A stretch of 64,000 nt of DNA from Escherichia phage vB_EcoP_SP5M. The stretch lies in the sequence record NC_070869.1. One strand, 5' to 3'. Below the pieces are notes generated by a model. The model was not told the DNA's origin. It searched no databases and was given only the letters and a program-made list of their open reading frames with translations. The position numbers and the translations under genes are program-made. Positions 79-8,286 of this stretch are shown here, piece after piece. Numbering within the stretch: position 1 is the first letter of the stretch; each line of letters starts with the position of its first letter.

Positions 79-93
79 ACATGCTCCGCATGT
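79..93 (+). promoter_or_regulatory. Hairpin promoter of N4 virion-RNAP type (ACATGC-TCC-GCATGT, then TATGGA)
   Basis: Perfect 6-bp inverted repeat with 3-nt loop TCC (GGA on template strand); same architecture recurs at 893, 1153, 5693. Confidence 0.6.
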
Positions 94-135
94 TATGGAC
101 ATGTCGTCCTATCATCAACTATTGGAGCTATCATC

Positions 136-940: not shown

Positions 941-1147
941 ATGTATATTCATACTTCCCTGTTTGCAAACAAGAGTAACAATGGTGGATTGTTAGGTAAG
1001 ATTGATGCTCAGTGGAATCTTTGGTTCTCAGAGATTACTAACGTAACAGAGAGACAGCACTATGTTGCTTGTCACTCATTCCCTGCTAAGCCTACCAAGA
1101 AACAAATCCGTAAATTGCGTAGAGAGTTTCGCAAAGAAGCAATCTAA
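941..1147 (+). CDS. Small basic early protein, C-terminal AKPTKKQIRKL motif
   Basis: ORF track; paralogous C-terminus to ORF 1805..1990. Confidence 0.5.
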   Translation: MYIHTSLFANKSNNGGLLGKIDAQWNLWFSEITNVTERQHYVACHSFPAKPTKKQIRKLRREFRKEAI

Positions 1148-1152
1148 AACCA

Positions 1153-1167
1153 AGATGCTCCGCATCT
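1153..1167 (+). promoter_or_regulatory. Hairpin promoter of N4 virion-RNAP type (AGATGC-TCC-GCATCT, then TATGGA)
   Basis: 6-bp stem, TCC loop, conserved flanks. Confidence 0.6.
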
Positions 1168-1280
1168 TATGGATGATGTAAATGCATCCACTAATCATTG
1201 AAATCTTAAGTCTTTTCTTGGGTTTAGTCACCGACAGACAAACCCATCAATCAAATAATCATTTATCTGGAGAGTACAAA

Positions 1281-2213: not shown

Positions 2214-2510
2214 TATTCACTAACATAGAAGATGCCATTGAAGAATGCATCTTTCGTAGGTATCACACTGGTGTACAGAAACGACACTATGGTGTTGTGC
2301 AACTCAATGGCTATCAAATGGTTGTAAGAATTGTACGTAAGAGTAAACCTTTTAACTTTATGTGGAGTACTAAATCATGCGCAAGTCATTAATTATGGGA
2401 ACCAAAGAAGACGTACAAAAGATGAAAGAGCGTCTGGCTGCTAAGAAACAGACTTCTGAACCAGTACGTAAGATTGTTACCTTCAATCATCCATGTATCA
2501 AATAGCAGGG

Positions 2511-2540
2511 AGTCCTCCATTAGGAGGGCTTCTATTTTTT
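2511..2540 (+). terminator. Rho-independent terminator
   Basis: AGTCCTCC-ATTA-GGAGGGCT hairpin followed by TCTATTTTTT. Confidence 0.55.
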
Positions 2541-2583
2541 ATTCTTGAATAGTTAGATATGCATTTAAATAGGAGAAATAACC

Positions 2584-2901
2584 TTGAATGAAATTGTTTG
2601 TATACTTCCTCAATCAGCTAAGATAGCTGACCGGAATATACGTATTCACCTACCTTTTCCATTAAGTAATCCATTCACTCGTAATGAAAGAACCACAGTA
2701 GAAGATGTAGAGGTAGCTTATGAAGCTTACCTTCGTAATCGTCTTATTAGTGGTGACAAACTAATTACAGCAGAGATGGAAAGGATTGCTTCCTTTGTAA
2801 CAGATAGTACAGGTAAGCCTGTTGGTTTAATTGGTACTGAATCTGATGTTAACGTTATTCGTAAAATACTAATGGAGGCACTAAGTGAACAACCTCAGTG
2901 A
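2584..2901 (+). CDS. Hypothetical protein (105 aa), TTG start
   Basis: ORF track; AGGAG 8 nt upstream of TTG. Confidence 0.45.
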   Translation: MNEIVCILPQSAKIADRNIRIHLPFPLSNPFTRNERTTVEDVEVAYEAYLRNRLISGDKLITAEMERIASFVTDSTGKPVGLIGTESDVNVIRKILMEALSEQPQ

Positions 2902-3118
2902 TGTAATTGTAGGTAATGAGATATTCATTGACCGAAAAGGTTATGCCCGAATTAAACTAAAGGGTAATAACAGAACTATTGTTCGTAAGGTGTACTCTAA
3001 ACCTTTTAGCAATTTCTCTATTGATGAAGTACGTATTAATAACAAGATGTACTTCATAGATAGTAAAGTATCTGTATGTCATACGGATGGTAAAACCTCT
3101 CTTGAATATACTTACTAA
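2885..3118 (+). CDS. Hypothetical protein (77 aa)
   Basis: ORF track; tight packing with neighbours. Confidence 0.4.
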   Translation: MNNLSDVIVGNEIFIDRKGYARIKLKGNNRTIVRKVYSKPFSNFSIDEVRINNKMYFIDSKVSVCHTDGKTSLEYTY

Positions 3119-3130
3119 GGAATAAACAAA

Positions 3131-3352
3131 ATGCTGTTCAGCACTAATTATGGTATTTGCCCAATTTGCAATAAAGGAAGAGGAGTTGCCAATCATAAGA
3201 AGTGTAGTCGTATTCTACAGAAACGACGGAACCAGAAAGAATGGGATAAGATATTAGAAAACCAACACAAAGATGAGTTCAAGAAGACGGCTGTTAAGGC
3301 ATCTACTCAGCTCATTCGTCGTACTAACTTCATAAAAGGTTATCAGAAATGA
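3131..3352 (+). CDS. Small basic Cys-containing (CPIC...C) protein
   Basis: ORF track; Cys pattern. Confidence 0.4.
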   Translation: MLFSTNYGICPICNKGRGVANHKKCSRILQKRRNQKEWDKILENQHKDEFKKTAVKASTQLIRRTNFIKGYQK

Positions 3353-3705
3353 AACTAATCGTGGCTGGTGGAAGAGACTTCGTTAATACCCAAGTAATGA
3401 TTACGGTATTAATGGATTTAGTGGAGAAGGGTAAGATTGACCCTAATCCTGAATTAGTATGTGGTATGGCTCGTGGTGCTGATATGCTTGCATACAGCCT
3501 ATGGGCTAACCACAATATGAAAATCCATACATTCCCGGCAGATTGGAAAACTCACCCAAGAAGTGCTGGATATATTCGAAATGCAGAAATGGGTAATTTT
3601 GCAGATGTACTTGTTGCCTTCTGGGATGGTAAATCCAGAGGAACCAAGCACATGATTGATATCATGCAAAGGCTAAATAAACCTGTATACATCGTGAGGT
3701 ACTAA
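3349..3705 (+). CDS. SLOG/DUF2493-like Rossmann-type protein (DprA/LOG-like)
   Basis: Motifs IVAGGRDF ... CGMARGADMLAYSLWA recalled as SLOG family pattern. Confidence 0.45.
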   Translation: MKLIVAGGRDFVNTQVMITVLMDLVEKGKIDPNPELVCGMARGADMLAYSLWANHNMKIHTFPADWKTHPRSAGYIRNAEMGNFADVLVAFWDGKSRGTKHMIDIMQRLNKPVYIVRY

Positions 3706-3963
3706 ATGATTATTACATATCCTACCTGTAGACCATTCAATTATATGGGGCAAACAATTGCAATACCCTTGTGGGTTAAATATGTTGCCCTGTTGCCACG
3801 TACATATACTAGTAATAACTCTTCCCTTATGGGTTTTGTAAGAAAGCCCAAACTAACTGCCGAAGGTACTTGGGTATCTAAAGGAAGGCAGGAAGAAATT
3901 GGTATCTGTAATTATGTACCTGAAGATAATAAGACCTATTTAACATTGGAGAAGGTGAAGTGA
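3706..3963 (+). CDS. Hypothetical protein (85 aa)
   Basis: ORF track only. Confidence 0.3.
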   Translation: MIITYPTCRPFNYMGQTIAIPLWVKYVALLPRTYTSNNSSLMGFVRKPKLTAEGTWVSKGRQEEIGICNYVPEDNKTYLTLEKVK

Positions 3964-4274
3964 AAACTATTCTAGTAGTTCATGATTCTACATTTACCGA
4001 TGTAGATAAGATGATGCGTAATATTGATTATGTATCTCAGACAAGCCAAGCATTCAATGAAGAGTTTACTCTGTACTGTAATGCTGAATCTCCACTGGTT
4101 CCTATTATTAAGGAGTCAGGTATACCCTTCTCTACAGAGAACTTCCCGGAAGAACCAGACTATGTAATCTCATTTATATATGACTTACATGATGGTTCAG
4201 GGACTAGTGAATTAGCTATGAACCAGTGGCGTAGTAAACGTCCTGTGTTCGCATTTCAGGTACTTAAACCATGA
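3960..4274 (+). CDS. Hypothetical protein (104 aa)
   Basis: ORF track; overlapping stop/start. Confidence 0.4.
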   Translation: MKTILVVHDSTFTDVDKMMRNIDYVSQTSQAFNEEFTLYCNAESPLVPIIKESGIPFSTENFPEEPDYVISFIYDLHDGSGTSELAMNQWRSKRPVFAFQVLKP

Positions 4275-4651
4275 AGATTATGTCATTAGGTGACGACACC
4301 AATGCTTTATTAGGTGTATCTGCACGTCCAATTATCATTGTTAATAAACATCACGGTAAATCCGGTGAGTATATTGGACGTGGTTCACCTCTTGGAAATC
4401 CATTCGTCATTGGTAAACATGGAACCAGAGAGCAAGTAATTGCTAAGTATAAAGTCTGGCTACAAGAACAGATTGATAAAGGTAATCCAGTTGTACTGGA
4501 TGAACTCAATCGTCTGGGTAATAAAGCCATTGACGAGAAAGGACTAGCCTTACAGTGCTTCTGTTATCCGAAACCATGTCATGGTGAGGTTATTAAAGAG
4601 AAGCTAGTACAGGCTATGTATAACTACTTTGTGGAGAATCCTAATGGGTAA
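4271..4651 (+). CDS. DUF4326-like protein
   Basis: YIGRGSPLGNPF ... CFCYPKPCHG pattern recalled as DUF4326. Confidence 0.45.
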   Translation: MKIMSLGDDTNALLGVSARPIIIVNKHHGKSGEYIGRGSPLGNPFVIGKHGTREQVIAKYKVWLQEQIDKGNPVVLDELNRLGNKAIDEKGLALQCFCYPKPCHGEVIKEKLVQAMYNYFVENPNG

Positions 4652-4892
4652 GCCAAAGAACCATTCCAAAGAATGGGATAATCTAGATAATACTAACTTA
4701 AAATTATTAGTGGAATCTAATAAGTCTTTTGTAGAAATATCAAATATTATGCAGAGAACTCTTGCAGCTACTATAACCCAAGCTCAAAGGTTAAACCTAA
4801 TCCATGTACAAGATGTTGGAGGAGAATTAAGAAGTAAGATTATTTATAAAATTACTTACTTAGAATCCATACCATGGAGTACTTTCAAATGA
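4629..4892 (+). CDS. Hypothetical protein (87 aa)
   Basis: ORF track only. Confidence 0.3.
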   Translation: MWRILMGKPKNHSKEWDNLDNTNLKLLVESNKSFVEISNIMQRTLAATITQAQRLNLIHVQDVGGELRSKIIYKITYLESIPWSTFK

Positions 4893-5074
4893 ATAAACAG
4901 TGTAATTGTGGTAAAGGCTATGTATCCCAATGGGATAACAAGTGTGGTAAATGCCGAACCAAGAAAGAACAACGCGATCATGAGTATGCTCTTACTTATT
5001 TAGAAATGACACGTAACTATAACAATATGACCGCACATGATGCTTATATTTATAATAGAGAGGCTTGTAAATGA
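4874..5074 (+). CDS. Small zinc-ribbon-like protein (CNCG...CGKC)
   Basis: ORF track; Cys pairs. Confidence 0.4.
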   Translation: MEYFQMNKQCNCGKGYVSQWDNKCGKCRTKKEQRDHEYALTYLEMTRNYNNMTAHDAYIYNREACK

Positions 5075-5427
5075 AAGAAATCTTCGTATTTACTACCAAC
5101 ACGTTAGGTCAGCACACTAAGGGTGCTGCTAAAGTGGCTTATAAGAAGCACGGTGCTCGCTGGGGTATGGCTTATGGTCAGTATGGTAATAGCTTTGCTA
5201 TTCCTGTTAAGAACCAAGATGGTCAATACATCCGGGAAGAATATATTAATGGCTTTGTAGAAGGATTCATTAACTATGCCGCTATCAATCCTCAGTGGGA
5301 TTTCCACTTACATAGTACAGAACATTTAGACCCATATCAGTTCATTAATGCTACTGGTAATGTCCTGTTCCCAGAAGAATGGAGACAATACTTAGGTGAC
5401 AATTACAACTACTGGGGAACCTTCTAA
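5071..5427 (+). CDS. Hypothetical protein (118 aa)
   Basis: ORF track; overlapping stop/start. Confidence 0.45.
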   Translation: MKEIFVFTTNTLGQHTKGAAKVAYKKHGARWGMAYGQYGNSFAIPVKNQDGQYIREEYINGFVEGFINYAAINPQWDFHLHSTEHLDPYQFINATGNVLFPEEWRQYLGDNYNYWGTF

Positions 5428-5687
5428 TGACATATGAAGAACTATGGGCTGCTCAGGTTAGAGCCAGAGCACTCACACGGCATGACATCTACTGTGCATT
5501 GCAGAACGAATTAAAGGGTCGTACTAAGCTGGGTCACATATCAGGTTTAATTAAAATACCTATGCGTAGTCTGGTATGGCCTTATCGGGAAAAAAGTAAT
5601 GAATTTAGCGGTAATGGTTTATATGTACGTATTAACTACCTCGGCCAAGAGAACAATATTCGTATTGCCTTTTGGACTAAGCGTTAG
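5427..5687 (+). CDS. Hypothetical protein (86 aa)
   Basis: ORF track. Confidence 0.4.
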   Translation: MTYEELWAAQVRARALTRHDIYCALQNELKGRTKLGHISGLIKIPMRSLVWPYREKSNEFSGNGLYVRINYLGQENNIRIAFWTKR

Positions 5688-5692
5688 GTAAT

Positions 5693-5707
5693 AGCTGCTC
5701 CGCAGCT
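5693..5707 (+). promoter_or_regulatory. Hairpin promoter of N4 virion-RNAP type (AGCTGC-TCC-GCAGCT) upstream of RNAP II genes
   Basis: 6-bp stem, TCC loop, followed by TTGGGGA. Confidence 0.55.
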
Positions 5708-5720
5708 TTGGGGATATAAA

Positions 5721-5975
5721 ATGGATACAACTGCTGTAAGCATTGGGGAGATTGTAAAAAGAAAACATCAATTAAAATGGAGAGATTATCATCTATTAAA
5801 ACATCTTATTCGTATGACTGTTTCAAGCCCTACTCTACAATATTCAGAAGTAAGTGTACTAGGGGTAAGATTATCGATGTTTACCCATAGAGAGGTCGTA
5901 TCAAAGAGTATATTTATAAGCTGCTACTTCGATAAAAGTATTGGCAAATATGAATTCAATTGTTTTATTAAATAA
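5721..5975 (+). CDS. Hypothetical protein (84 aa)
   Basis: ORF track. Confidence 0.35.
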   Translation: MDTTAVSIGEIVKRKHQLKWRDYHLLKHLIRMTVSSPTLQYSEVSVLGVRLSMFTHREVVSKSIFISCYFDKSIGKYEFNCFIK

Positions 5976-5998
5976 ACTAATTTATTAGGAGATATGCG

Positions 5999-6817
5999 AT
6001 GTACTCATCTATTGAACATCAGAAGCAGCTTGAAGTCCTATTCAATAAAAATCAATTACTGCCTCGCATGAGGAAGGAATTCGAGGACTCCAAAGAAATT
6101 GACTTTAAGGCATTCGCTGCCTATTTAGAAATTGATTATAAGCTGCTCATTGATGCAATGGTGCAGATTGCCCTACATAAACGTGCTGACATCCAGACTA
6201 TGATTGGCTCTCTCATGAGTCACTCAGATGATGCTCAGTACATCGCTGACTGTCTGTATAAGATGGCAGAGAATGACTGCTTCAACTATGACCCTACCAT
6301 CGACAAGTTCGGTGTTATCTATGAGATTAGTGAAGATGTCCAAATGGAACTGGAAGCATTCCAGTATCCATTACCTATTGTAAGTGCTCCTAATCCCGTT
6401 AGAACTAACAGAGATACTGGTTACTACCAGACTAAAGGAAGCATCATACTCAAGAAGAACCATCATGAGATGGATGTCTGCCTTGACCACATCAACCGTA
6501 TGAACAATCAACGTCTTTGCATTAACTGGGACGTTGCCAACTATGTAAAAGACTCTCGTCCTAATATGGATAAACCCAAAGAAGGTGAAACCCGTCAGGA
6601 CTATGAGAAACGAGTTAAAGCCTTTGAGAAGTACAGCCGTACTGCTAAGGAAGTAATGGAGTTAGTGACTCAGGAAGGCAATAACTTCTCACTGGGTCAC
6701 AAATATGACAAACGTGGGCGTACTTACGCTCAGGGCTATCACATCAACTATCAGGGAACCAGCTACAACAAAGCTGTACTGGAGTTCGCTGATAAGGAGT
6801 TAGTAAATGAAGACTAA
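5999..6817 (+). CDS. Phage RNA polymerase II small subunit (N4 gp15-like, N-terminal half of a split T7-like RNAP)
   Basis: Size (272 aa) and position directly before the catalytic subunit; promoter hairpin upstream. Confidence 0.65.
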   Translation: MYSSIEHQKQLEVLFNKNQLLPRMRKEFEDSKEIDFKAFAAYLEIDYKLLIDAMVQIALHKRADIQTMIGSLMSHSDDAQYIADCLYKMAENDCFNYDPTIDKFGVIYEISEDVQMELEAFQYPLPIVSAPNPVRTNRDTGYYQTKGSIILKKNHHEMDVCLDHINRMNNQRLCINWDVANYVKDSRPNMDKPKEGETRQDYEKRVKAFEKYSRTAKEVMELVTQEGNNFSLGHKYDKRGRTYAQGYHINYQGTSYNKAVLEFADKELVNED

Positions 6818-7024
6818 CATTGGCTCCTATGAGTTATGGGTTAATGAAGAGTGTATCTACTCAGGTACGTATGTGAAGTGCCTATACTTTGAGAAGCTTT
6901 ATAAGCTTCAGAACCCTAAGAATAAAACCATTATTTATAAACTATCTGCCGACGTAGTAACTATCTAACCCTCCAATAAGCAGGCTCTCCATAGTGGGGA
7001 GCCAAGAAGCAAAAGGAAAATACA

Positions 7025-8242
7025 ATGCAACTGTTAACTGCCCGTGAATACCTGAAAGTAGATATCGCTAACAACTATGGCTTAGATAAAAAGACATGGG
7101 ATGAACGTATTAGCTGGTTCGATGAGAATGAAACTAACCTGCTTAATCTGGTAGATGAAGCTGAAGAATCTGCACTGTTCTATGCTGGTGTAAACGCATG
7201 GAAAGATATGAAAGCTGGTAAACCTATTGGTTATGCCGTAGCTCTGGATGCTACATCATCTGGCTTACAGTTACTGGCTTGCCTGACTGGTGACCGTTCT
7301 GCTGCTGAACTATGTAACGTAGTTAACTACATGGGTGAGAATGGTAAACCATTACGACGTGATGCTTATACAGTTATCTATCATAAGATGTTGGACATCC
7401 TTGGTGAAGCATCTCGTATTAAACGTAGTGACACCAAGCAGGCAGTTATGACTGCGTTCTACGGTTCAGAAGCCAAGCCTAAAGAAGTATTCGGTGAAGG
7501 TATCCGTCTCAAGACTTTTGAGAATGTAATGGAAACTGTTGCTAGTGGCCCTTGGGCACTGAACAAGTTCTTACTGCAATGCGGTAACCCGGATGCTAAC
7601 CGTTACGTATGGATACTGCCTGACAACTTCCACGCTGTCATTAAGGTCATGGTTCCTGAAGTACAGACCGTTAACTTCTTAGGTAAACCATTCGATATCA
7701 CACGTATGGTTCAGGGTACTGAAGAGAAGACACGTATGCTCTCTGCTAACATCACCCACTCTATTGATGGGATGGTGGTACGTGAGATGCTACGTCGTTG
7801 CAACTTCGACATGAACCAGGTGAACTATGTTAAGTCCCTCTGCGAAGGAACCAGTGATTATATGGTTGCCCCTGATGATAACTATGAAATGGTTAACACA
7901 CTGTGGTCTAACTATGAGAAGTCTGGCTACCTGTCTACCCGTATCTTTGATTATCTGGACTCAGAAACGATTGAATTGGTTGATACAGATGTAATCATGG
8001 CTATGCTCAATACCATGCCTAAGAAACCATTCCCTGTAATGACTGTACATGACTGCTTCCGTTGTCATCCTAACTATGGCAATGACCTGCGTCGTCAGTA
8101 CAATCAGATTCTGTCTGACATTGCTAAGAGTGACCTACTGGGCTTCATCCTGTCTCAGGTACTGGGACAAGAGTTCTCTGCTGGTAAGCTGGATGACAGC
8201 CTCTGGCAGGACATTCTTGAAACAGACTATGCATTAAGTTAA
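7025..8242 (+). CDS. Phage RNA polymerase II large subunit (N4 gp16-like, catalytic half of T7-like RNAP)
   Basis: YAVALDATSSGLQLL (motif A-like) and VHDCF (motif C-like); 405 aa. Confidence 0.75.
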   Translation: MQLLTAREYLKVDIANNYGLDKKTWDERISWFDENETNLLNLVDEAEESALFYAGVNAWKDMKAGKPIGYAVALDATSSGLQLLACLTGDRSAAELCNVVNYMGENGKPLRRDAYTVIYHKMLDILGEASRIKRSDTKQAVMTAFYGSEAKPKEVFGEGIRLKTFENVMETVASGPWALNKFLLQCGNPDANRYVWILPDNFHAVIKVMVPEVQTVNFLGKPFDITRMVQGTEEKTRMLSANITHSIDGMVVREMLRRCNFDMNQVNYVKSLCEGTSDYMVAPDDNYEMVNTLWSNYEKSGYLSTRIFDYLDSETIELVDTDVIMAMLNTMPKKPFPVMTVHDCFRCHPNYGNDLRRQYNQILSDIAKSDLLGFILSQVLGQEFSAGKLDDSLWQDILETDYALS

Positions 8243-8248
8243 TAAACT

Positions 8249-8286
8249 GGCCTCATTCCTTCGGGAGTGAGGCCTTTTATTTTTTG
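8249..8286 (+). terminator. Rho-independent terminator
   Basis: GGCCTCATTCC-TTCG-GGAGTGAGGCC hairpin followed by TTTTATTTTTT. Confidence 0.65.

What the first reader, a model, noticed from the sequence alone, without database searches (positions are those of the whole stretch)
3349..4651. Early small-protein cluster with SLOG-like and DUF4326-like nucleotide-associated domains
Among the early genes are a SLOG/DUF2493-like Rossmann protein and a DUF4326-like protein, embedded between zinc-ribbon mini-proteins. Both families are, to my knowledge, linked to nucleotide-derived small molecules, and the position fits host takeover or anti-defense functions.
Basis: inference. Interest (0 to 1): 0.4.

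Follow-up and report, generated by a model that had tools for sequence, protein, structure and literature searches.

The report
Phage early SLOG and DUF4326 genes
Two small genes near the first-entering end of an N4-like E. coli phage do encode a SLOG nucleotide-binding domain and a DUF4326 cysteine-loop domain; the pairing is already published and their function (probably countering NAD/ADP-ribose-based host defence) has never been tested.

Summary
ORF 3349-3705 matches Pfam YAcAr (SLOG, ex-DUF2493) and ORF 4271-4651 matches DUF4326, both above the curated cut-offs. Two AlphaFold models are confident (pLDDT 96 and 93). The window is a Gamaleyavirus (G7C-like, N4-like coliphage).

The genes lie between virion-RNA-polymerase promoter hairpins, upstream of the phage RNAPII genes, so an early position is plausible. 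Two terminators lie between the nearest upstream hairpin and the cluster.

The SLOG-DUF4326 link is real beyond this lineage:
- fusions in 11 of 27 multidomain DUF4326 proteins;
- a giant NADAR+SLOG+DUF4326 polyvalent protein;
- adjacency in several other viral contigs.

All of this was already described computationally by Iyer, Burroughs and Aravind (2021, 2022), and relatives are already annotated with these names in GenBank. No experiment defines either family.

New details found here:
- a second, catalytically dead DUF4326 paralog at 2584-2901;
- the SLOG gene is a clean presence/absence cassette (4 of 12 related contigs);
- a decayed A1S_2505 gene at 5071-5427.

Best reading, confidence about 0.4: an accessory early module acting on NAD+/ADP-ribose-derived nucleotides or adducts. 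Ordinary and largely known; interest is low to moderate.

The parts
79..94 (+). N4-type virion-RNAP early promoter hairpin (heptamer GCTCCGC in an inverted repeat), first of four
   Evidence: Repeat family D3/D6; exact WGCTCCGCW match; same motif as KP8 P1-P4 (PMC6950046).
893..908 (+). Second early promoter hairpin (AGAAGC-TCC-GCTTCT)
   Evidence: also picked up as a hairpin.
1153..1168 (+). Third early promoter hairpin, just upstream of the gp2-like RNAPII cofactor gene (1182-1661, phrog_4099)
   Evidence: Mimir124 annotation.
2508..2533 (+). Intrinsic-terminator-like hairpin (11 pairs, followed by a T run) immediately upstream of the cluster
   Evidence: sequence read.
2584..2901 (+). 105-aa DUF4326 paralog that has lost the family's invariant residues (R37, R53 and the whole CxCxPxxCH loop); probably not catalytic
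   Evidence: phrog_464 at E 3.3e-17. Pfam DUF4326 at E 0.012, below threshold. jackhmmer convergence. Alignments. Present in all 19 Gamaleyavirus-type loci examined.
2885..3118 (+). 77-aa protein of unknown function (phrog_10124), variably present
3131..3352 (+). 73-aa mini-protein with a conserved CPxC...HxxC pattern (putative zinc knuckle), phrog_6887
3349..3705 (+). 118-aa stand-alone SLOG domain of the YAcAr (ex-DUF2493) family
   Evidence: Pfam E 1.8e-11. AF2 pLDDT 96.2. Foldseek hits to ShosA, DprA and ThsA-SLOG. Conserved G7G8R9, G39-x-x-R42-G43-x-D45, R77N78, G94xS96xG98T99. 100% identical to the 'DNA processing protein' of phage vB_EcoP_SP5M.
3706..3963 (+). 85-aa protein of unknown function (phrog_1972), always directly upstream of the 104-aa gene
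3960..4274 (+). 104-aa protein of unknown function (phrog_7827); precedes DUF4326 in all 12 related contigs, directly abutting it in 9
   Evidence: No significant similarity to SLOG (hhalign probability 3.5%).
4271..4651 (+). 126-aa DUF4326 protein with all family invariants (R37, R53, Y60, C96-x-C98-x-P100-x-x-C103-H104)
4629..4892 (+). 87-aa protein of unknown function (phrog_37989; the likely true start is the ATG at 4644), variably present
4874..5074 (+). 66-aa mini-protein with a conserved CxC...CxxC pattern (putative zinc ribbon), phrog_13804
5071..5427 (+). 118-aa A1S_2505-family phage non-structural protein (labelled 'ADP-ribosylglycohydrolase' in related records). This copy lacks an 8-residue conserved block.
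   Evidence: NCBIfam NF049995 at E 6.3e-26; phrog_2072; alignment; annotations.
5427..5687 (+). 86-aa protein of unknown function (phrog_14487), last gene before the fourth promoter hairpin
5693..5708 (+). Fourth early promoter hairpin, upstream of the RNAPII subunit genes

Best explanation
The region is part of a tightly packed accessory operon (about 2584-5687) in the early-type left arm of a Gamaleyavirus. I read it as a host-takeover or counter-defence module acting on NAD+/ADP-ribose-derived nucleotides, either free signals or breakdown products.

Proposed division of labour (inferred, not shown):
- The stand-alone YAcAr SLOG domain binds an adenine- or ADP-ribose-containing ligand in its glycine-rich pocket (G7G8R9, GxxRGxD, RN, GxSxGT). 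It either sequesters the ligand or cleaves a ribosyl N-glycosidic bond.
- The DUF4326 protein is a minimal alpha/beta domain. Its invariant CxCxPxxCH loop sits between a beta-strand and a helix, as the P-loop does in cysteine phosphatases. Together with R37 and R53 it would process a phosphate on the ribose product.

What is shown: the domain identities, the intact conserved residues, the fold similarities, the fusion and neighbourhood links, and the position in the genome.

What is inferred: the substrates, the chemistry, the timing of expression and the anti-defence role.
For: - Domain identity.
- SLOG structure: model pLDDT 96. The best structural neighbours are SLOG proteins, including ShosA, DprA and the ThsA SLOG domain bound to 3'cADPR.
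- DUF4326 residues: the window protein keeps residues found in 145-149 of 150 diverse family representatives.
- Fusions: of 27 multidomain DUF4326 representatives, 7 carry YAcAr, 3 a DprA-type and 1 a YpsA SLOG, 4 carry NADAR and 1 Macro.
- Other architectures: a viral protein of more than 3251 aa carries NADAR + cpYpsA SLOG + DUF4326; an N4-like contig has a NADAR-DUF4326 fusion; two portal proteins carry DUF4326 at the C-terminus. This suggests action at the very start of infection.
- Neighbourhoods: a SLOG gene lies within 6 kb of DUF4326 in 7-9 of 68 diverse viral loci, including adjacent genes and one fusion. By comparison, tblastn finds a SLOG relative in only 818 of 50,697 phage genomes.
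- Accessory character: the SLOG gene is a cassette, and only 2 of 78 related genomes cover at least 80% of 2500-6000.
- Literature: predictions in PMC7824862 and PMC9503650. Deleting a DprA/Smf-like SLOG gene (ORF83) in phage DruSM1 lowers plating on AVAST type III (10.1101/2024.04.14.589459; 10.1101/2025.06.06.658234).
Against: - No biochemical activity has been shown for any YAcAr or DUF4326 protein.
- The loop lacks the arginine of the classical CX5R motif.
- The two genes are separable. The SLOG is missing in 8 of 12 related contigs, and 42 distant SLOG loci have no DUF4326 within 10 kb.
- The strongest co-occurrence is within one phage family that shares gene order.
- DUF4326 also sits next to terminase genes and, in T4-like phages, next to ribonucleotide reductase genes.
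- Two terminators lie between the nearest upstream promoter hairpin and the cluster.
- No PADLOC hit.
Confidence: 0.4

Rival explanations
1. The proteins act on nucleic acids rather than on free nucleotides. The SLOG would be a DprA-like single-stranded-DNA binder or a sensor. DUF4326 would process DNA or RNA ends or remove adducts, for example ADP-ribose placed on DNA by DarT-type toxins. The role would be to protect or repair the incoming genome.
For: - The closest solved structures to the SLOG model include DprA with ssDNA (4ljk, 3uqz).
- The GxARGxD motif resembles DprA's (the DprA motif is from my own knowledge).
- Relatives are annotated 'DNA processing protein DprA'.
- DUF4326 is also fused to a 3'-5' exonuclease and hits a 'DNA repair protein' PHROG.
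- SLOG fused to an SF1 helicase occurs in ICP1 HelB (10.1101/671271).
- From memory, not checked here: Burroughs and Aravind 2023 (NAR Genom Bioinform lqad029) predict DNA-end processing for the RapZ-C/DUF488/DUF4326 clade.
Against: - The window SLOG gets no Pfam DprA hit.
- It is only 118 aa and lacks DprA's extra domains.
- The EVADES preprint reports that the related ORF83 lacks the DprA dimerisation and RecA-binding residues.
- No nuclease, ligase or polymerase gene is linked in this cluster.
Confidence: 0.2
2. The genes serve nucleotide-pool metabolism for phage DNA synthesis. The SLOG would act as a LOG-like nucleotide phosphoribohydrolase and DUF4326 as a sugar-phosphate or nucleotide phosphatase, feeding salvage rather than countering immunity.
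For: - LOG-type SLOG enzymes hydrolyse AMP (summarised in PMC9503650 and 10.1101/2025.06.06.658234).
- DNPH1, a nucleotide N-glycosidase, appears among the structural neighbours.
- DUF4326 lies next to ribonucleotide reductase genes in many T4-like and Felix-like phages and is labelled 'NrdA-like' there.
- From my own knowledge: RapZ, the best structural match, binds a phosphosugar.
Against: - In this phage the genes sit far from the replication and nucleotide-metabolism genes, in a hypervariable accessory block.
- The SLOG is dispensable in close relatives.
- Fusion partners are ADP-ribose-processing domains (NADAR, Macro), not salvage enzymes.
- According to PMC9503650, viral SLOGs are mostly of the YpsA-like clade, not the LOG clade.
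Confidence: 0.15
3. There is no joint function. SLOG and DUF4326 are independent accessory genes that happen to sit in the same mosaic early region, each with its own, possibly unrelated, target.
For: - The SLOG is a clean presence/absence cassette, with 8 of 12 related contigs lacking it.
- One SLOG-bearing relative (L003) lacks the canonical DUF4326.
- 42 of 54 SLOG loci have no DUF4326 nearby.
- Two unrelated genes separate them here.
Against: - Repeated independent fusions of the two domains, and adjacency in other viral contigs.
- SLOG, DUF4326 and A1S_2505 are retained in varying order in the N4-like contigs examined, whose SLOG is 53-92% identical to the window's.
Confidence: 0.25

Closest known systems
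Viral SLOG-DUF4326 (with Macro/NADAR) associations described by Iyer, Burroughs, Anand, de Souza and Aravind (Viruses 2021, PMC7824862; Viruses 2022, PMC9503650)
   Same: The same two Pfam families occur in phages. I reproduced their fusions to each other and to NADAR and Macro. The functional idea is also the same: processing of ADP-ribose derivatives in virus-host conflict.
   Different: Here the domains are separate small genes with two unknown genes between them, in an N4-like early arm. The locus also holds a dead DUF4326 paralog. The published proposals are computational and are not fully consistent with each other: a DNA-modification link in 2021, terminal ribose phosphates in 2022.
ORF83 of phage DruSM1, reported as an anti-AVAST type III gene (Ojima et al. 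bioRxiv 10.1101/2024.04.14.589459; analysed in EVADES, 10.1101/2025.06.06.658234)
   Same: Both are small phage-encoded SLOG proteins annotated as DprA/Smf-like. Both have ThsA/LOG/DprA-type structural neighbours. Its reported ligand residues (R89, N90, T112) have counterparts at similar spacing here (R77, N78, T99). Its amoeba-virus homologues are fused to DUF4326.
   Different: I could not obtain the ORF83 sequence, so identity and family membership were not measured. DruSM1 is a Queuovirinae siphovirus. The related phage 9g has no SLOG in the 37 kb I scanned. The phenotype is a knock-out effect in a preprint and no mechanism is known. The residue after T is D in ORF83 and H here.
ThsA SLOG domain of type I Thoeris (PDB 7uxs, 6lhx, 8btp)
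   Same: The Rossmannoid SLOG fold is shared (Foldseek probability 1.00, TM 0.57-0.64). ThsA's SLOG binds a cyclic ADP-ribose isomer, which sets a precedent for ADPr-derived ligands.
   Different: Sequence identity is only 12-14%. ThsA's SLOG is a sensor fused to a SIR2 effector in a bacterial defence system, whereas this is a stand-alone phage protein. Ligand binding was not tested.
DprA/Smf recombination mediator (PF02481)
   Same: It is among the best structural matches (4ljk, 3uqz), has a similar GxARGxD loop, and is the name used in several GenBank records.
   Different: There is no Pfam DprA match for the window protein. The protein is 118 aa against roughly 280-370 aa, and it lacks the flanking DprA domains. 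The GenBank name should be read as 'SLOG fold', not as a function.
RapZ C-terminal domain and cysteine phosphatases (PTEN, DUSPs) of the rhodanese-phosphatase superfamily
   Different: Foldseek sees no match. The fold is much reduced (2-3 strands). The loop is CxCxPxxCH rather than CX5R. Sequence identity is 10-14%.

Membership tests
SLOG superfamily, YAcAr family (Pfam PF10686, ex-DUF2493) | Profile match above the curated gathering score | tested here: met
   44.1 bits against a cut-off of 28.2, E 1.8e-11. All 120 listed homologues carry PF10686.
SLOG superfamily, YAcAr family (Pfam PF10686, ex-DUF2493) | Three-layer alpha/beta Rossmannoid fold with a parallel sheet | tested here: met
   The AF2 model (pLDDT 96.2) alternates strands and helices (E2-7, H14-26, E35-38, H44-54, E59-61, H73-84, E87-92, H97-108, E113-117). 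Top Foldseek hits are ShosA, DprA and ThsA-SLOG, TMq 0.57-0.74.
SLOG superfamily, YAcAr family (Pfam PF10686, ex-DUF2493) | Conserved glycine-rich or polar loops after strand 1 and after strand 3 that contact the nucleotide (as described in PMC9503650) | tested here: met
   G7, G8, R9; G39, R42 (at least 90%), G43, D45; R77, N78; G94, S96, G98, T99 are invariant or nearly so across 29 sequences of 65-100% identity. The contact role itself is inferred.
SLOG superfamily, YAcAr family (Pfam PF10686, ex-DUF2493) | Binding or cleavage of a nucleotide or ADP-ribose-derived ligand | not testable with these tools
   Needs biochemistry; no coordinates or docking were available.
DUF4326 (Pfam PF14216) | Profile match above the curated gathering score | tested here: met
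   79.8 bits against a cut-off of 25, E 2.4e-22.
DUF4326 (Pfam PF14216) | Family-invariant residues: GR in YxGRxxxLGNP, R53, Y60, and LxCxCxPxxCH | tested here: met
   All are present in the window protein. Each is found in 143-149 of 150 representatives clustered at 50% identity.
DUF4326 (Pfam PF14216) | Membership of the rhodanese-phosphatase superfamily (claimed in PMC9503650) | tested here: inconclusive
DUF4326 (Pfam PF14216) | Cysteine-dependent phosphoesterase activity | not testable with these tools
   No experiment is available. The loop lacks the CX5R arginine.
DUF4326, applied to the upstream paralog 2584-2901 | Profile match and invariant residues | tested here: not met
   Pfam E 0.012, 16.7 bits against a cut-off of 25. 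R37 is L, R53 is V and the Cys/His loop is absent. Homology itself is supported by phrog_464 at E 3.3e-17. It is therefore a divergent homologue, not a canonical member.
DprA/Smf (Pfam PF02481) | Profile match and full DprA architecture | tested here: not met
   No PF02481 hit at E of 1 or less. The protein is a single 118-aa domain. Only fold-level similarity is seen.
Known phage anti-defence proteins (ORF83 anti-Avs3; Tad-type signal sponges) | Sequence homology to an experimentally implicated protein | not tested
The proxy phage 9g has no SLOG in the 37 kb scanned.
Known phage anti-defence proteins (ORF83 anti-Avs3; Tad-type signal sponges) | Loss- or gain-of-function phenotype against a defence system | not testable with these tools
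   Requires phage genetics.
N4-type early (virion-RNAP-transcribed) genes | Location between the left genome end and the RNAPII genes, on the same strand | tested here: met
   RNAPII-like genes lie at 5999-6817 and 7025-8242.
N4-type early (virion-RNAP-transcribed) genes | A hairpin promoter upstream with no intervening terminator, or transcript data | tested here: inconclusive
   The nearest upstream hairpin is at 1153-1168. Terminator-like hairpins at 1671-1690 and 2508-2533 intervene. No transcript data are available.
A1S_2505 family phage non-structural protein (NCBIfam NF049995), for 5071-5427 | Profile match above the cut-off | tested here: met
   90.8 bits against a cut-off of 45, E 6.3e-26. 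This copy lacks an 8-residue conserved block.

The most novel reading that the evidence does not exclude
The conserved backbone (dead DUF4326 paralog, 85-aa, 104-aa, active DUF4326, A1S_2505) plus the optional SLOG cassette may be one multi-part anti-defence device. The active DUF4326 would destroy an ADP-ribose-derived immune signal or DNA adduct. The SLOG would add capture or cleavage of a second ligand. The catalytically dead paralog would act as a sponge, decoy or regulator. That would be a pseudoenzyme/enzyme pair not yet described for phage counter-defence.
Probability: 0.12. Interest if true: 0.6.

Novelty: already known. Interest (0 to 1): 0.27.

Why it matters
If the predicted role holds, these genes would be widespread phage tools against NAD+/ADP-ribose-based immunity. 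By tblastn at E 1e-5, SLOG relatives occur in 818 and DUF4326 relatives in 890 of 50,697 phage genomes.

Gamaleyaviruses offer a convenient natural experiment. Close relatives differ by a clean SLOG cassette, and they carry both an intact and a dead DUF4326 copy.

As it stands, the finding adds no new family and no new association. The genes are already annotated with these names, and the pairing is already in the literature.

Tried and rejected
- Is the 104-aa protein (3960-4274) a second, divergent SLOG? The profile-profile comparison gave probability 3.5%. Not supported.
- Is the A1S_2505 protein a Macro domain, as the 'ADP-ribosylglycohydrolase' label in relatives suggests? There was no Pfam Macro hit for four intact relatives and no PDB sequence match. 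Left open.
- PADLOC defence models: no hits for any of the 10 proteins.
- Sequence searches of the PDB with the single proteins and with the DUF4326 profile: nothing significant.
- Direct comparison with the anti-Avs3 protein ORF83: the sequence is not in the preprints or supplements I could read. Gao et al. 2022 is not held, nor is Burroughs and Aravind 2023. The Queuovirinae proxy, phage 9g, has no SLOG in 20-56.7 kb.
- A third homologue search with a diverse DUF4326 profile still returned mainly Gamaleyavirus proteins. The diverse alignment of 50%-cluster representatives was used for the structure prediction instead.
- Sigma-70 promoter scan: fewer sites than in shuffles (17 against 26), so it is uninformative.
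Full report
**What the window is.** Megablast of 2500-6000 finds 78 phage records, almost all Escherichia, Klebsiella or Shigella phages of the genus Gamaleyavirus (Schitoviridae; G7C-like N4 relatives). The best are Mimir124 (88.5% identity) and K57alpha1.2 (94.8%). The SLOG protein is 100% identical to the 'DNA processing protein' of Escherichia phage vB_EcoP_SP5M. Only 2 of the 78 records cover at least 80% of this stretch, so it is a mosaic accessory region.

**The observation.**
- The + strand carries a run of short genes with overlapping or abutting stops and starts.
- ORF 3349-3705 (118 aa) matches Pfam YAcAr (SLOG, ex-DUF2493) at E 1.8e-11, and ORF 4271-4651 (126 aa) matches DUF4326 at E 2.4e-22. 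Both are above the gathering scores, and both have strong PHROG matches.
Their CPxC...HxxC and CxC...CxxC patterns are kept in all collected homologues.

**Transcription context.**
- Four hairpins with the heptamer GCTCCGC inside inverted repeats lie at 79-94, 893-908, 1153-1168 and 5693-5708. All are on the + strand, and they are the only exact matches in 64 kb.
- They match the P1-P4 promoters proposed for the related phage KP8 (PMC6950046). They also fit the N4 virion-RNAP promoter description: a GC-rich heptamer flanked by inverted repeats (PMC4496689).
- The third hairpin precedes the gp2-like cofactor gene, and the fourth precedes the RNAPII subunit genes at 5999-6817 and 7025-8242.
- Strong terminator-like hairpins lie at 1671-1690, 2508-2533 and 8249-8274.
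- The cluster 2584-5687 therefore sits in the early arm, but behind two terminators and without its own hairpin. Early expression by read-through is plausible but not shown.

**The SLOG protein.**
- AlphaFold2 gives pLDDT 96.2 and a regular alternating strand/helix fold.
- Foldseek against the PDB returns ShosA, several DprA structures, the ThsA SLOG domain with 3'cADPR, Cam1 and DNPH1. All of these except Cam1 are SLOG or closely allied Rossmannoid domains.
- Across 29 homologues (65-100% identity) the loops G7G8R9, G39xxR42G43xD45, R77N78 and G94xS96xG98T99 are invariant or nearly so.
- There is no Pfam DprA hit, so the GenBank label 'DprA' reflects fold only.

**The DUF4326 protein.**
- An exhaustive search of the library clustered at 50% identity finds 5556 relatives.
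- In 150 diverse representatives R37, R53, C96, C98, P100, C103 and H104 are each present in 145-149. The window protein has all of them.
- The model (pLDDT 93.4) is a small alpha/beta domain. The CxCxPxxCH loop lies between strand 92-96 and helix 105-122.
- Foldseek finds nothing significant, and there is no sequence match in the PDB.
- This agrees only moderately with the published assignment to the rhodanese-phosphatase superfamily (PMC9503650).

**Is the pairing meaningful?**

For:
- Among 27 multidomain DUF4326 representatives, 7 carry YAcAr, 3 a DprA-type SLOG, 1 YpsA, 4 NADAR and 1 Macro.
- In viral contigs I found a NADAR-DUF4326 fusion, a protein of more than 3251 aa with NADAR + cpYpsA SLOG + DUF4326, and two portal proteins ending in DUF4326.
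- Of 68 diverse DUF4326 loci, 7-9 have a SLOG gene within 6 kb. Some are adjacent and one is fused.

Against:
- Of 54 SLOG-anchored loci, only the 12 with SLOG identity of at least 53% have DUF4326 within 10 kb. The other 42 have none.
- Within Gamaleyavirus-type contigs the SLOG is present in only 4 of 12. Where it is absent, the 73-aa gene's stop overlaps the 85-aa gene's start, so the SLOG is a clean cassette.
- The more stable backbone is: paralog, (73 aa), (SLOG), 85 aa, 104 aa, DUF4326, (87 aa), (66 aa), A1S_2505, 86 aa. Genes in brackets are variably present.

- ORF 2584-2901 is a DUF4326 homologue (phrog_464 at E 3.3e-17; jackhmmer). It has lost R37, R53 and the whole Cys/His loop. It is kept in every Gamaleyavirus-type locus examined, which suggests a non-catalytic role.
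- ORF 5071-5427 belongs to the A1S_2505 family (E 6.3e-26). Related records call it 'ADP-ribosylglycohydrolase'. This copy lacks a conserved 8-residue block and two glycine/serine positions.

**Comparison with the literature.**
- The SLOG-DUF4326-Macro-NADAR network in phages and giant viruses was described by Aravind's group (PMC7824862, PMC9503650). They predicted that viral SLOGs sense or cleave ADP-ribose derivatives and that DUF4326 removes terminal ribose phosphates.
- KP8's gp14 is already annotated DUF2493 (PMC6950046).
- The only phenotype I found for a phage SLOG is from a preprint. Deleting ORF83 (Smf/DprA-like) in phage DruSM1 lowered plating on AVAST type III (10.1101/2024.04.14.589459).
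- The EVADES preprint notes that amoeba-virus homologues of ORF83 are fused to DUF4326 (10.1101/2025.06.06.658234). I could not obtain ORF83's sequence for a direct comparison.

**Verdict.**
- The interpretation matches published predictions but remains unproven.
- The most likely role is an accessory early module acting on NAD+/ADP-ribose-derived nucleotides or adducts (confidence about 0.4).
- The rivals are nucleic-acid end or adduct processing, nucleotide-pool metabolism, and simple independence of the two genes.
- Novelty is low. The modest new points are the dead paralog, the SLOG cassette polymorphism and the decayed A1S_2505 copy.

Noticed in passing
window 2584-2901: A second DUF4326 homologue that has lost all invariant Arg/Cys/His residues. 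It is conserved in every Gamaleyavirus-type locus examined and may be a pseudoenzyme.
   Followed up: yes
window 3349-3705; loci L057-L068: The SLOG gene is a clean 357-bp presence/absence cassette, present in 4 of 12 related contigs. Where it is absent, the upstream 73-aa gene's stop overlaps the 85-aa gene's start.
   Followed up: yes
window 5071-5427: This A1S_2505-family gene ('ADP-ribosylglycohydrolase' in related records; per the KP8 paper the KP8 homologue is 77% identical to an N4 protein) lacks an 8-residue 'RIGCGLAG' block and the G-S of 'FVFGSN' that relatives keep. It may be decaying. My guess that the family is Macro-like was not confirmed.
   Followed up: partly
window 941-1147 and 1805-1990: Two paralogous early mini-proteins share a C-terminal 'AKPT(K/R)KQIRKL' motif. 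It shows up as a 49-nt direct repeat (1073-1121 and 1934-1982, 73% identity) and as cross-hits to phrog_2375 and phrog_7840.
   Followed up: no
window 79-94, 893-908, 1153-1168, 5693-5708: Four N4-type virion-RNAP promoter hairpins (GCTCCGC in inverted repeats; the first three are followed by TATGGA or ATTGGA). They match KP8 promoters P1-P4.
   Followed up: partly
window 2534-2583: The AT-rich gap after the 2508-2533 terminator contains GCATTTAAATAGG. It might be an N4 RNAPII-type middle promoter, but I recall the consensus only from memory. If so, the cluster would be middle rather than early.
   Followed up: no
loci L095 3232-6252, L103 3190-6252, L080 23-9775: DUF4326 occurs at the C-terminus of two phage portal proteins. 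It also occurs inside a polyvalent protein of more than 3251 aa, together with NADAR and a cpYpsA SLOG domain. This suggests delivery with the virion.
   Followed up: partly
phage records (e.g. Klebsiella phage KP15 43933-44175): In T4-like and Felix-like phages the DUF4326 homologue lies beside ribonucleotide reductase genes and is often labelled 'NrdA-like'.
   Followed up: no
window 6807-6968, between 5999-6817 and 7025-8242: A 53-aa ORF fills the gap between the two RNAPII-type polymerase genes. In Mimir124 an HNH endonuclease gene sits at this position.
   Followed up: no
loci L073, L082, L084, L085, L092, L093, L096 (e.g. L085 3988-4527): A different protein of about 179 aa with a DprA-like 'GxAxGADxxA' motif (Pfam DprA E 0.0065, below threshold) recurs near DUF4326 in 7 viral loci. 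It may be another SLOG type that my YAcAr profile missed.
   Followed up: partly
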